From: Eledone cirrhosa
Lineage: Eukaryota
DNA length: 64,000 nucleotides
Direction of reading: 5' to 3'
Assembly (NCBI GenBank): GCA_964016885.1
Contig: OZ024742.1
Coordinates: 868,001 to 932,000, forward strand
Each line of letters starts with the position of its first letter. Positions within the stretch are counted from its first letter, which is position 1. Positions 902 to 41,889 of the stretch are shown here, piece by piece. A model generated the notes under the pieces. It had not been told where the DNA came from. It did not search any database and saw only the letters and a program-made list of their open reading frames with translations. The position numbers and the translations under genes were made by a program.

Positions 902-1028
902 AATATTATTCTGATGAAATGACAGTAAATAATAACATTGAAATATTGAATGTCTGCATAACTAAAAGTTTGTAGATAGCAGCTGTTTTAGGTTATGTAA
1001 CTGTTATAGAAACACGTGTCAATAAATT
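902..1028 (+). ncRNA. Type I hammerhead ribozyme (minimal palindromic stem III, extended stem II)
   Basis: Stem I TTATT(906-910)/AATAA(1021-1025); CTGATGA 911-917; stem II ATGACAGT/ACTGTTAT; GAAA 1009-1012; C-ACGT-G; GTC 1018-1020. Confidence 0.8.
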
Positions 1029-1410
1029 CCTTTCAACTAAACTGTATCCATTCAAATCTTTCTATTTTTCTCTGGATTACTTTTGGAACTACAACTGGAA
1101 CCGTCGAGCAAACTCTACGTGAGCTGATAATCTACTGTGTGTAATATTTATATTACAACACAACGGAAAATACTGTATATATGTATATATATATATATAT
1201 ATATGTATATATATGTATATATATATATATGTGTATATATATATATATGTATATATATATATATATGTATATATATATATGTATATATATATATATATAT
1301 ATGTATATATATATATGTATATATATATATATATGTATATATATATATGTATATATATATATATATGTATATATATATATATGTATATATATATGTATAT
1401 ATATATATAT

Positions 1411-2017
1411 GTCAGGTCACCAGTTGGTGCTACTGGTAACATGTATCCCAGTACAACCTGTCTCATGGTCGGGTCGTTGGCGACTAAAATGGCAACCCCA
1501 CCAAGGTCTCTTGGTGAGGAGGGTGACTGGACATCCTGCAGGACTAAAAACAAAACCTGTCAAAGGGCAAAGGAGCTCTTAAGAGTCAATGGCCATCCAA
1601 AATCACCGGGAGAGATGACCCCTTAGCCTTTGTCAAGGCAGAATTCTAGGAGAAGGAAAACTCTGATATAACACATGCAACCCTGATGGTATCCAATGAT
1701 GTTGAGTTGTTCTTCTTTTTGGTAAATATCATCTTGGTTAAGAGAGTGGGACTGGCTTTGTGCAGTGCCTTTGCTCACTATAAAAGCTTCACAGCACAGG
1801 CATTGCTTTGTATCTGGAGATCTCCCTGCACTTGTCGTCACATGGTACCATGGGCCCAGCACTATGTGTCAATAATTGTCACAAGTGTAGTGTCTGTACC
1901 AGAGTTTTCAAGTCGCTGGCTGGACTAAAAAGTGACACTCGTTCAGCGTATCGGTAGGGGTTCTCTTACATGGATATAAAGTAGTGGCTGTACTCGAAAA
2001 CGAGTTGGCAGCCACCA
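1411..2017 (+). mobile_element. ~600-bp non-coding interspersed element (copy 1) inserted in (TA)n
   Basis: Near-identical to the reverse complements of 8688-9297 and 43149-43708; flanked by TA repeats; terminal hairpin GTGGCTG-TACTCG-AAAA-CGAGT-TGG-CAGCCAC. Confidence 0.85.
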
Positions 2018-2057
2018 TATATATGTATATATATATGTATATATATATATGTATATA

Positions 2058-3795
2058 TCATCATCATCATCAACGTTTAACGTCCGTGTTCCACGCTTGC
2101 ATGGGTTTGGACGGGGGTAGTCCCACTTGAGGCAAGAGTGATTGTCTTGCTCGCATAGGACTGTCTGGCAGGTTTTCTACAGTTGGATGCCCTTCCTAAC
2201 ACCAACCACATTTACAGTGTGGGTCTGGGAGGTTTTTACCGTGTTGCCTACTGGCTGTAGTAGGTTTTACTATGTATTTAGGTAAGGCGGGTCTTCTCTG
2301 TTACTGAGTACCGCCAAAGGTCTCGGTCCAGTGACATTGTCTTGGAGAGGTGTAAGTGTGTGAGGTCGGAGTTTATCAGCTCGTCCCAGGTTTTTCTAGG
2401 TCTGCCTATTCCGTGGCTACCATCTATCTTTATTGCCCTGCACTTTGTTATACAGTTATCGACTTTCATGCGCATCACGTGTCCATACCAACGTAGCCTT
2501 CTCTCGAGTAAACAACATCTGATCCCTCTTATTTCTAATTTTTTCCTTAGTTCGTTTATGCTTTGCCGTTCACGTATATTACTGTTACACATCCAGCGGA
2601 GCATGCAAGCTTCATTCCTCTCTAGTCTGCGTATATCCTCTGCACACAATGCCCAGGTCTCACTGCCATGCAACATTGCTGTTCGTATGCAGGCATCGTA
2701 CAACCTGCCTTTCATTTTTAGGGAGAACCCTTTAGCAGTTAATAGTGGTATAAGCTCTCTGAACTTTTTCCAACCAGTTCTGACTCTAGCTACTGTACTT
2801 TCAGAGCACCCTCCCCCACTGCTGATTTTATCACCCAGGTAACGGAAACTGTCCACTATTTCTATAAAACCCTCTGCGCAATTGAAAGAGCTAGTATTTT
2901 GTGGGCACTTGCTGCTACTTATTGCACCAGAGCACCGGCCACATGTAAAATCTATGTTCTTAGTTAGCTTACCTGTGATCCCACTACATCTTTTATGCAC
3001 CCATACTTTGCATTTAGGACATAAAATGGAGTTTCTACGTACGCCTTTCCTACACACCGAGCACGACCATTTCCCAGAAGGGACCGCCGCCTTATTTTCT
3101 TTCCTACAAACTAGAACTTTAGTCTTAGCCAGGTTAATTTTAAGGCCTTTTGATTCTAGGCCGTGCTTCCATGTTTGGAATTTCTTCTCTAGCTCGGCCA
3201 TTGATTCCGCTATGAGTGTCAGGTCGTCTGCGTATAGGAGTTCCCATGGGCAGCCGGTCTTGAACTCCTCTGTTATAGCCTGAAGGGCAATAATAAATAG
3301 TAGGGGGCTGAGAACACAGCCCTGATGGACGCCAACTTTTACACTTAACTCTTCACTATTTTCCTTGTTAATTCTAACCTTACTGACTGTTTCTTTATAC
3401 ATGGCTTGTATAGCTCTCACAAGCCATTCGGCAACGCCTAGTTTTCTAAGAGCCCACCAGATAATGGAGCGGGGGACTCTGTCGAAGGCTTTCTCCAAGT
3501 CGACAAAAGCTAAGTAGAGGGGTTTACCTTTAGCTAGGTACTTCTCCTGTAGTTGTCGTACAATGAAAAGAGCGTCTGTGGTACTTTTGCCTGACACAAA
3601 CCCGAACTGCATTTCATCTAGATCAATTCTCTCTCTGATTAGTTGCGCTATTACTTTTTCCGTGACCTTCATGACCTGGTCGATTAATTTAATGCCTCTA
3701 TAGTTACTCCTATCTAGGGCGTCTCCTTTACCCTTATAACAGTTAACGATGATGCTGCTATGCCAGTCCTTCGGAACAAACCCATTCTGTATGAC
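2058..3795 (-). mobile_element. RTE-clade LINE, family A, 5'-truncated
   Basis: Open RT frame ([38 protein letters not shown]) ending KTRLT* at 2278; 3' UTR with (GAT)n tail; 5' end fused to (TA)n. Confidence 0.93.
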
Positions 3796-38479: not shown

Positions 38480-39686
38480 AGTGTGTATAGATATGAATAC
38501 ATATATATGTATATATACATATATATACATATATACATACATATATGTATATATATATATACATATGTATGTACATATATACATACATGTATATATATAT
38601 ATATATGTATATACATATATACATACATACATGTATATATATATATATATACATATATATATACATATATACATACATACATGTATATATATATATATAT
38701 ATATGTATGTATGTACATATATACATACATACATGTATATATATATATATACATATATATATACATATATACATATATATGTATGTATATACATATATAC
38801 ATACATACATGTATATATATATATATACATATATACATATATATGTATGTATATACATATATACATACATACATGTATATATATATATATACATATATAT
38901 ATATACATACATACATGTATATATATATATACATATATGTATATATACATATATATATGTACATACATATATGTATATATACATATATATATGTACATAC
39001 ATACATGTGTATATATATATATATATATATATATATATATATATATATATATATATATATATGTATGTATATACATACATACATGTATATATATATATAT
39101 ACATATATATATACATATATACATACATACATGTATGTATATATATATACATATATATATACATATATACATACATACATGTATATATATATATATATAT
39201 ACATATATATATATATATATATATACAAATATGTATATATATATATATATATATATATATATATATATATACATATATACAAATATGTATGTATATGTAT
39301 ATATATATATATATATATATATATATATATATATATACACATATATATATATATACATATATACAAATATGTATGTATATGTATATATATATATATATAT
39401 ATATATATAGGAACCAGTAAGACCCCGACAGCTGAGCTCAAGCCGTTTCGACGGCTAATATATAAATATGTATGTATATATATATATATATACATATATG
39501 TATGTATATATACATATATGTATATATATATATATATATATATATATATATATATATATATATATACATGTATATATATATATATATATATATATATATA
39601 TATGTATATATATATATACATACATATATATATATATATATATTTATGTATGTATGTATATACACATATGTATATATACATATATG
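38480..39686. repeat. (TA)n/(TACA)n field with a ~50-bp unique insert at 39409-39458
   Basis: Visible repeat. Confidence 0.9.
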
Positions 39687-40799
39687 TCATCATCATCATC
39701 ATCATCATCAACGTTTAACGTCCGTGTTCCACGCTTGCATGGGTTTGGACGGGGGTAGTCCCACTTGAGGCAAGAGTGATTGTCTTGCTCGCATAGGACT
39801 GTCTGGCAGGTTTTCTACAGTTGGATGCCCTTCCTAACACCAACCACATTTACAGTGTGGGTCTGGGAGGTTTTTACCGTGTTGCCTACACGGCCACATT
39901 ACAGCGTGGACTGTGTGTTTTTTTGTCGTGACACCTACACGATCTCATTTGTTTCGGCCTCGATGGCGCGGCACCAACATAACTTTACATAGAACGGGGT
40001 GGTGTGGATGGGGTGGGGGTGGTGGTGGTGGGACGGGGTGTATTTTGTTAGAGATGCCTACTGGCTGGAGTAGGTTTTACTATATATTTAGGTAAGGCGG
40101 GTCTTCTCTGTTACTGAGTACCGCCAAAGGTCTCGGTCCAGTGACATTGTCTTGGAGAGGTGTAAGTGTGTGATGTCGGAGTTTATCAGCTCGTCCCAGG
40201 TTTTTCTAGGTCTGCCTATTCCGTGACTACCGTCTATCTTTATTGCCCTGCACTTTGTTATACAGCTATCGACTTTCATGCGCATCACGTGTCCATACCA
40301 ACGTAGCCTTCTCTCGAGTAAACAACATCTGATCCCTCTTATCTCTAATTTTTTCCTTAGTTCGTTTATGCTTTGCCGTTCACGTATATTACTGTTACAC
40401 ATCCAGCGGAGCATGCAAGCTTCGTTCCTCTCTAGTCTTCGTATATCCTCTGCACACAATGCCCAGGTCTCACTGCCATGCAGCATTGCTGTTCGTATGC
40501 AGGCATCGTACAACCTGCCTTTCATTTTTAGTGAGAACCCTTTAGCAGCTAATAGTGGTATAAGCTCTCTGAACTTTTTCCAACCAGTTCTGACTCTAGC
40601 TACAGTACTTTCAGAGCACCCTCCCCCACTGCTGATTTTATCGCCCAGGTAACGGAAGCTGTCCACTATTTCTATAGAACCCTCTGCGCAATTGAAAGAG
40701 CTAGTATTTTGTGGGCACTTGCTGCTACTTATTGCACCAGAGCACCGGCCACATGTAAAATCTATGTTCTTAGTTAGCTTACCTGTGATCCCACTACAT
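39687..40799 (-). mobile_element. RTE LINE family A, 5'-truncated
   Basis: Near-identical to 2058-2990, ending KTRLT*; full 3' UTR. Confidence 0.92.
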
Positions 40800-40987
40800 A
40801 TATATATATATTTTTGTATGTATGTGTGTGTAAGTATGTTTTGGGGTTTTTTTTTTTTTGTGTGTGTGTTTGCATGCGTCGTTTTATTTTATTTTATTTT
40901 TCCTTTCCTTCTCCCTTCTCCAGCCTCACTTTCATATAGATTGTATTTTTTGGTTTGTAATCCAAATTCAATAAACAAACCAGCTTT

Positions 40988-41048
40988 TTCCCGTTCTGAG
41001 GATTGAAAGCAAAACCTTTTGCTTTTAAGAAACCACTGGTAAATGGAA
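40988..41048 (+). ncRNA. Type I hammerhead ribozyme, canonical core
   Basis: Stem I CCGTT(40991-40995)/AATGG(41042-41046); CTGAGGA 40996-41002; stem II TTGAAAGCAAA/TTTGCTTTTAA; GAAA 41029-41032; CC-ACT-GG; GTA 41039-41041. Confidence 0.85.
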
Positions 41049-41889
41049 TTATTGCCTTATGTTGTTTATTACATAATAATAATAATTAAGCTCTGTTGCA
41101 TACATAGAGCACTCTTTTTTCCTGGACTTTTCCGATGGAATTACTTCATTCACATATATATATATATATATATATATATGTATATGTATATATATATATA
41201 TATGTATATGTATATGTATATATATATATATATATATATATATATGTATATGTATATATATATGTATATGTATATATATATGTATATATATATGTATATA
41301 TATATGTATATATGTATATATATATGTATATATATATATATATATGTATATATATATGTATATATATATATATATATGTATATATATATGTATATATATA
41401 TGTATATATATATGTATATATATATATATATATGTATATATATATGTATATGTATATATATATGTATATATATATGTATATATATATGTATATATATATA
41501 TATATATATATATGTATATATATATGTATATATATATATGTATATAGGTATATATATGTATATATATATGTATATAGGTATATATATGTATATATATATA
41601 TGTATATGTATATATATATATATATATATGTGTATATATATATATATATATATATGTATATATATATATAGGTATTTATATGTATATGTATATATATATA
41701 TATATATATGTGTATATATATATATATATATATGTGTATATATATATATATATATATATATATATATATGTATATATATATATGTATATATATATATATG
41801 TATATATATGTATATATATGTATATATATATATATGTATATATATATATATATATATATGTATATATATATATATATATATGTATACAT

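What the first reader, a model, noticed from the sequence alone, without database searches (positions are those of the whole stretch)
902..41150. Four sequence-distinct hammerheads in 41 kb: a possible high-copy, TA-targeting ribozyme/PLE system
Seen: four folds in two architectures (palindromic stem III with long stem II; CC-nCT-GG stem III with short stem II). Each has its predicted cleavage site about 35-155 nt upstream of a (TA)n tract. Inference: if this density is typical, the genome holds a very large and diverse set of self-cleaving RNA motifs mobilised by several PLE lineages into TA microsatellites. PLE-associated hammerheads are known in general; whether these families are described cannot be judged without a search.
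Basis: inference. Interest (0 to 1): 0.72.

Follow-up and report, generated by a model that had tools for sequence, protein, structure and literature searches.

The report
Ribozyme-tipped jumping genes saturate TA repeats
The four hammerhead (self-cutting RNA) folds are the tail ends of four families of a known jumping-gene group (Hydra-clade Penelope-like elements) that end in TA repeats, and sampling suggests this genome holds about a quarter of a million such folds, some with an unusually long conserved arm; whether they actually cut RNA is untested.

Summary
All four folds are there, with predicted cut sites 35-155 nt before (TA)n, and they exceed chance. Each is the pseudo-LTR of a 5'-truncated copy of a Hydra-clade Penelope-like retrotransposon. 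Full units with RT and GIY-YIG ORFs were found for three families; the fourth has its broken ORF in the window. Craig et al. 2021 already describe this clade, its (TA)n targeting and its hammerheads, including an octopus family, so the system is known. The density guess holds: 81 strict folds in 0.99 Mb of evenly spaced sample (shuffled mean 0.5), 21 sequence clusters, about 245,000 genome-wide by extrapolation. Seven exact motifs alone give 122,989 hits. Not found in my paper searches: this scale, and 79-91-nt helix II arms (covarying in one family); Rfam misses all four folds. Copies end at two fixed points past the cut site, one per arm of an inverted insertion (26 of 28 pairs). So the copied RNA was likely uncut or re-joined, and most motifs are likely inert stubs. 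Two of the seven counted motifs are not Hydra. This scan reported the same genome-wide picture earlier from other windows of this genome.

The parts
1..1175 (+). 3' stub of Hydra family D: end of ORF (begins about 180 nt before the window), 3' UTR, pseudo-LTR, long end
   Evidence: 93-99.7% match to the intact tandem unit L112; 5' junction abuts a TA array
906..1025 (+). Hammerhead D: helix I 5 bp, core 911-917, helix II 918-1008, GAAA 1009-1012, palindromic helix III 1012-1019, predicted cut after 1020
   Evidence: 3,740 exact 3'-half motifs genome-wide, control 0
1176..1412 (.). (TA)n array at the long end of D
4725..4853 (+). Short 3' stub of Hydra family A inside a 1.3-kb TA array, short end
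4749..4826 (+). Hammerhead A: helix I 11 bp, U4C core 4760-4766, helix II 4767-4802, 3-bp helix III, predicted cut after 4815
   Evidence: A plus B motif 14,238 hits, control 16
15115..15152 (.). (TA)19 at the short end of C
15153..17870 (-). 5'-truncated Hydra family C copy: broken RT and GIY-YIG ORF 17844-15947, 3' UTR, pseudo-LTR
   Evidence: six-frame translation, tblastn 40-73% to family D
15205..15314 (-). Hammerhead C: core 15308-15302, helix II 15301-15223, palindromic helix III, predicted cut after 15211; helix I weak in this copy
   Evidence: 3,348 exact motifs, control 0
40811..41153 (+). 3' stub of Hydra family B between two TA tracts, long end
   Evidence: 93% match to both pseudo-LTRs of unit L113
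40991..41046 (+). Hammerhead B: core 40996-41002, 12-bp helix II, 3-bp helix III, predicted cut after 41041
41090..41110 (+). Bulged hairpin between the short and long end points, shared with other Hydra families
41154..41891 (.). (TA)n array at the long end of B
7029..8505 (-). Two-armed insertion of a second, non-Hydra PLE lineage between TA arrays; its hammerhead has lost helix II (core remnant 7314-7308)

Best explanation
The four folds are hammerhead motifs in the pseudo-LTRs of 5'-truncated copies of four Hydra-clade Penelope-like retrotransposon families, which end in (TA)n arrays and likely insert there by endonuclease-primed reverse transcription starting at two fixed RNA sites downstream of the predicted cut site. 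Shown: full units are pLTR-ORF-pLTR tandems of 3.6-4.7 kb; ends fall at a short (34-60 nt) or a long (100-225 nt) family-specific distance past the cut site; two-armed insertions pair one short with one long end. Inferred: each cut DNA strand primes at one of the two sites. Because both ends lie beyond the cut site, the template would be uncut read-through RNA or a re-joined circle. The ribozyme likely trims unit-length RNA from tandem transcripts, as a dimer in C and D (palindromic helix III) and possibly as a monomer in A and B. The huge motif count is likely a by-product: copying starts just past the ribozyme, so almost every stub carries one.
For: Hammerhead pairs flank RT and GIY-YIG ORFs: D in L112 (intact 785-codon frame, cores 3,596 bp apart), A in L115 and L117, B in L113; C is contiguous with its ORF in the window. 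Hydra signatures RWK, DKT, CxCX5C, no CCHH, CxxC and CxH match the published definition. End distances are bimodal: D 14 short, 14 long, 1 between, 1 internal of 30; A/B 16 short and 14 long of 30. Of 32 outward-facing inverted pairs, 26 are short plus long, 2 short plus short, 4 involve an internal copy. TA within 250 nt downstream in 68 of 72 sampled folds against 28% of random places. The 5' junctions of A, B and D also abut TA. Helix III alone: no monomer hairpin; self-duplex -10.3 (D) and -6.4 (C) kcal/mol. Two internal start sites and ribozyme-independent insertion were shown in vitro for a Poseidon PLE (PMC11167929).
Against: No cleavage or expression data. No tree with published Hydra proteins; clade placement rests on motifs and a by-eye look at the supplement. 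Units are longer than the '<3 kb' described for Hydra. Pfam found no RT or GIY-YIG domain. None of the four has the usual G10.1-C11.1 pair, A has U4C (which lowers activity in vitro, PMC3088659) and the window copy of C misfolds, so activity may be low. The 5' junction of C is not TA. No empty-site comparison. The two short-plus-short pairs are in the non-Hydra family, where my end calling was unreliable.
Confidence: 0.8

Rival explanations
1. The ribozyme is central to copying: unit RNAs are cut, circularised, and reverse-transcribed through the re-joined cut site, which gives the ends beyond the cut site and the tandems.
For: Ends lie past the cut site; tandems exist; folds are conserved with compensatory changes; proposed by Cervera and de la Pena (PMC4209133); a non-coding tandem family of 420-500 nt units occurs in this genome.
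Against: For Poseidon-Ac, uncut RNA was the dominant substrate and ribozyme mutants still inserted. Read-through of tandems explains the ends without a circle.
Confidence: 0.25
2. The four are non-autonomous retrozymes rather than ends of coding elements.
For: A and B in the window are ORF-less stubs of 130-340 nt; retrozyme-like arrays do exist in the genome.
Against: Each family has copies contiguous with a Hydra ORF.
Confidence: 0.03
3. The TA tracts are tails synthesised by the element, not pre-existing targets.
For: TA begins exactly at the ends; no empty sites were compared.
Against: TA also abuts 5' truncation points in 3 of 4 window copies; different families are nested in one array; internal tandem copies run on into the ORF without TA.
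Confidence: 0.08
4. The folds are chance matches in AT-rich repetitive DNA.
For: Loose descriptors do give 22-40 chance hits per Mb.
Against: 81 strict hits against a shuffled mean of 0.5; covariation; fixed position in the pseudo-LTR.
Confidence: 0.01

Closest known systems
Hydra clade of C-terminal EN+ Penelope-like elements, incl. Hydra-1_Obim of Octopus bimaculoides (Craig et al. 2021, PMC8557442)
   Same: RWK, DKT, CxCX5C linker, no CCHH, (TA)n insertions, hammerhead near the 3' end, tandem and inverted layout, tail at one end only. The published Hydra-1_oBim helix III (ACCA-A-UGGU) resembles A and B; family C shares the U.U mismatch at the base of helix II seen in many table rows.
   Different: Published Hydra helix II regions are about 10-24 nt; C and D have 79-91 nt. 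Tails are about 70-165 nt here against 30-40 bp described for PLEs. Units are 3.6-4.7 kb against <3 kb. The paper reports one octopus family; here 12 Hydra-like RT clusters at 80% identity among 23 fragments and tens of thousands of ends per family.
PLE hammerheads and min-HHRs (Cervera and de la Pena 2014, PMC4209133)
   Same: Type I folds in pseudo-LTRs, palindromic helix III suited to dimers, mostly single dispersed motifs from truncated elements, many consensus families per genome.
   Different: Reported counts are 2,000-9,000 per genome; helix II 6-8 bp; G10.1-C11.1 conserved there, absent in these four.
Poseidon-Ac mechanism (Frangieh et al. 2024, PMC11167929)
   Same: Two internal start sites downstream of the ribozyme that define a tail; AT-rich targets; both strands extended.
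   Different: Different clade; start sites lie in the ORF and 30-40 nt apart there, in the UTR and further apart here; pairing of the two ends within one insertion is my genomic inference.
Animal non-LTR retrozymes (PMC7229834; bioRxiv 10.64898/2026.07.22.740005)
   Same: Applies to family F0 elsewhere in this genome: non-coding 420-500-nt tandem units with a compact hammerhead (25,944 exact motifs).
   Different: The four window families are coding. Largest count seen in print is 126,247 in axolotl, a far larger genome (size recalled).

Membership tests
Hydra-clade PLE | Single ORF with RT and C-terminal GIY-YIG endonuclease | tested here: met
   Intact frame in L112; motif order RDD then YxGxT. 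Pfam gave no hit, so the domain call rests on motifs.
Hydra-clade PLE | RWK motif and DKG changed to DKT | tested here: met
   Present in A, B, D; the window copy of C is truncated before them.
Hydra-clade PLE | CxCX5C linker; CCHH absent; CxxC and CxH near the C-terminus | tested here: met
   A, B, D; C linker in translation.
Hydra-clade PLE | Insertion into (TA)n | tested here: met
   empty sites not compared.
Hydra-clade PLE | Hammerhead in the pseudo-LTR | tested here: met
Hydra-clade PLE | Generally under 3 kb (descriptive, not diagnostic) | tested here: not met
   Units of 3,596 (D), 3,661 (A) and about 4,720 bp (B).
Hydra-clade PLE | Phylogenetic placement with published members | not tested
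   The tree holds only this genome's sequences.
Type I hammerhead ribozyme | Conserved core and three helices, NUH cut triplet | tested here: met
   U4C in A; helix I only 2 contiguous pairs in the window copy of C.
Type I hammerhead ribozyme | Compensatory changes in helices | tested here: met
   Family C, 17 sequences: 7 of 27 pairs change on both sides, all in helix II; covariation score above 500 of 500 shuffles, pair count reached by 16 of 500. Largely a two-subfamily contrast, so few independent events.
Type I hammerhead ribozyme | G10.1-C11.1 closing pair of helix II | tested here: not met
   A-U, U-A or C-G after a mismatch; common but not required (PMC3088659).
Type I hammerhead ribozyme | Self-cleavage | not testable with these tools
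   Needs an in vitro assay or RNA end data.
Non-LTR retrozyme | Non-coding short tandem units | tested here: not met
   All four families are linked to ORFs.

The most novel reading that the evidence does not exclude
This genome carries the densest hammerhead load on record (about one per 12 kb, more than 20 families, at least two PLE lineages plus retrozymes, all converging on TA arrays), and the long covarying helix II of the C/D lineage is a functional domain, such as a protein-binding or dimer-gating switch, that couples RNA cutting to the element's life cycle; with so many motifs, host transcripts crossing them in sense would be cut often enough to shape intron processing and select against sense insertions.
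Probability: 0.2. Interest if true: 0.75.

Novelty: new variant of a known kind. Interest (0 to 1): 0.42.

Why it matters
It raises the known abundance of genomic hammerheads per megabase far above the figures I found in print, and shows why they were missed: Rfam models score none of the four, and an Rfam-style survey of giant squid listed only 235. Young families with intact ORFs, natural core variants and helix II from 13 to about 100 nt are a ready test set for the open question of what hammerheads do for Penelope-like elements. The short-plus-long pairing gives genomic support for priming on both DNA strands. The system itself is published.

Tried and rejected
Rfam scans: no hammerhead. 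Pfam: no family below E 0.01 for 5 proteins. Solved-structure search: nothing significant. RNA evidence: no RNA holder listed; contigs of four runs of unrecorded type added nothing on cleavage, and low-depth matches in two other organisms were not interpreted. My first reading of fold D used an internal GAAA at 940 and gave no valid helix I; the correct one is at 1009. Candidates at 131, 1124, 17476 and 20380 lack the helices. 7029-7130 and 34640-34740 are tail sequence, not hammerheads. The descriptor was changed between (66 strict, shuffles 0-2; 81, shuffles 0-2) after I saw the first result. Covariation was not tested in D (6 distinct rows, too young) and only aligned for A/B. The shared tail hairpin was not found in C (0 of 14), D (0 of 14), F3 (0 of 12), F8 (0 of 1) or two F0 units, and in only 1 of 27 A tails under a 3-bp inner-stem rule. 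Full-length units of F0-F3 were not examined; their assignment rests on 3-kb loci, and the mobiliser of F0 is open.
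Full report
Observation. TA arrays start 155, 35-38, 58 and 112 nt downstream. C and D have 79- and 91-nt helix II regions and palindromic helix III; A and B have 36- and 26-nt helix II and CC-nCU-GG helix III. Three pass the strict descriptor; 197 of 200 shuffles gave none. The window copy of C has a weakened helix I and prefers a non-hammerhead fold. Rfam finds none of them.

Identity. The window lies in a 3.0-Gb assembly. It is probably an octopus, inferred only from the likeness of A and B to Hydra-1_Obim seen by eye. 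Each fold is a high-copy repeat (40-42 matches each among the 40 candidates scored). Longer copies show hammerhead pairs flanking an ORF: D in L112 with an intact 785-codon frame, A in L115 and L117, B in L113. C continues into a broken ORF at 17844-15947. The proteins carry RWK, DKT, a CxCX5C linker, no CCHH, and C-terminal CxxC and CxH, the published signatures of the Hydra clade. That paper lists (TA)n as target for nearly all Hydra families and tabulates their hammerheads, including Hydra-1_Obim. A and B are sisters (67% protein identity), C and D are sisters (99/99), and D and A share 37%.

Density. I took 99 stretches of 10 kb (100 asked, one did not exist) at fixed spacing on the large contigs; small contigs were not sampled. 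The strict descriptor gave 81 folds in 39 of 99 stretches, 82 per Mb (bootstrap 54-113; 73 without one tandem array of 9), against 0-2 (mean 0.5) in 20 shuffles. Scaled to 2,996 Mb this is about 245,000 (160,000-340,000). The descriptor was revised after a first run that gave 66. The hits form 21 clusters. Exact whole-genome counts of the 3' half-motif: D 3,740; A plus B 14,238; C 3,348; F1 39,688; F2 19,064; F0 25,944; F3 16,967; total 122,989, reversed controls 0-16. The 5' core was present in 27 of 30, 25 of 30, 12 of 30, 23 of 25, 24 of 25, 21 of 25 and 20 of 25 inspected loci, which by my arithmetic leaves about 107,000 with both halves. F1 and F2 adjoin Hydra ORFs. F3 adjoins a different PLE ORF, with a cysteine pattern I recall as Neptune- or Nematis-like. 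F0 forms non-coding tandems of 420-500 nt.

TA association. 68 of 72 sampled folds (tandem array excluded) have TA within 250 nt downstream, against 28% of random places and 30 of 72 upstream. Distances are family-specific and bimodal: D about 42 or 153, A/B 34-42 or 99-113, C about 58 or 222, F1 about 49 or 140, F2 about 43 or 133. Among 32 outward-facing inverted pairs, 26 join a short with a long end, 2 are short-short (F3) and 4 involve an internal copy. The 5' junctions of A, B and D also abut TA; that of C does not.

Structure. In 17 family C sequences, 7 of 27 pairs change on both sides, three of them in the distal arm of helix II; slid controls pair 22-48% of cells against 93%. This is mostly a contrast of two subfamilies. 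Helix III of C and D is stable only as a self-duplex. It was found in 1 of 27 A tails and was absent from C, D, F3 and F8, so it is not universal.

Mechanism. Shown: anatomy, end points, pairing, conservation. Inferred: the endonuclease cuts both strands of a TA array and reverse transcription starts at two internal RNA sites, as shown in vitro for Poseidon-Ac, giving two-armed insertions with a tail on one side. Since both ends lie beyond the cut site, the template is uncut or re-joined RNA. The ribozyme likely processes tandem transcripts, needing a partner copy or protein. Most of the motifs are then passive stubs. No RNA data bear on this.

Literature seen. PMC8557442: abstract, passages, sections 3 and 11, supplement searches and part 2 of 59. 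PMC4209133 and PMC11167929: parts 1-2 of 4. bioRxiv 10.64898/2026.07.22.740005: part 1 of 5 and passages; its supplements were not seen and might list counts. Passages only: PMC7229834, PMC6962438, PMC13282606 (no mention of ribozymes or Hydra), PMC3088659. Searches found no report of this scale in a cephalopod or of long helix II in Hydra elements; helix II regions of about 50 nt are tabulated for spike-moss PLEs. Repbase and Dfam could not be checked, and subscription papers are mostly missing.

Verdict. Real, and well explained by a published clade. The new parts are scale, family diversity, the long conserved arm and long tails. Earlier notes of this scan reached a similar picture in this genome; my counts were made before I saw them. 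Interest 0.42.

Noticed in passing
L122; L376-L381 (G000:C1:5,541,133-5,543,712): Family F0: non-coding tandem units of 420-500 nt, each with a compact hammerhead, in two-armed arrays; 25,944 exact motifs. Retrozyme-like; mobiliser not identified.
   Followed up: partly
window 7029-8505 and 34640-34812: Two-armed insertions of a non-Hydra PLE lineage between TA arrays, with a 58-nt tail on one arm; the first has lost helix II of its hammerhead by deletion.
   Followed up: partly
window 39411-39462: 50-nt stub of another high-copy TA-bounded family that often forms perfect inverted pairs (81 blast hits in held loci); it has a GAAA and a palindrome, but no 5' hammerhead core was seen.
   Followed up: partly
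L131, L135, L155, L163, L170: Further hammerhead-like folds with 76-104-nt helix II regions and near-palindromic helix III, in other families.
   Followed up: no
window 2059-3796, 5076-5680, 19120-20925, 35079-36210, 39690-40798: LINE fragments (RTE-like, label recalled) ending in (CAT)n also abut TA arrays, so TA arrays collect several element classes.
   Followed up: no
window 45484-64000; 22486-27428; 9692-10325: Satellites of 42 bp (441 copies), 37/44 bp and 52 bp.
   Followed up: no
window 37018-37075: tRNA-like match (31 bits), probably the head of a tRNA-derived SINE.
   Followed up: no
L278-L307: The U4C core is common in one family C subfamily (7 of 12 cores seen) as well as in family A, suggesting repeated gains of this variant.
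   Followed up: partly
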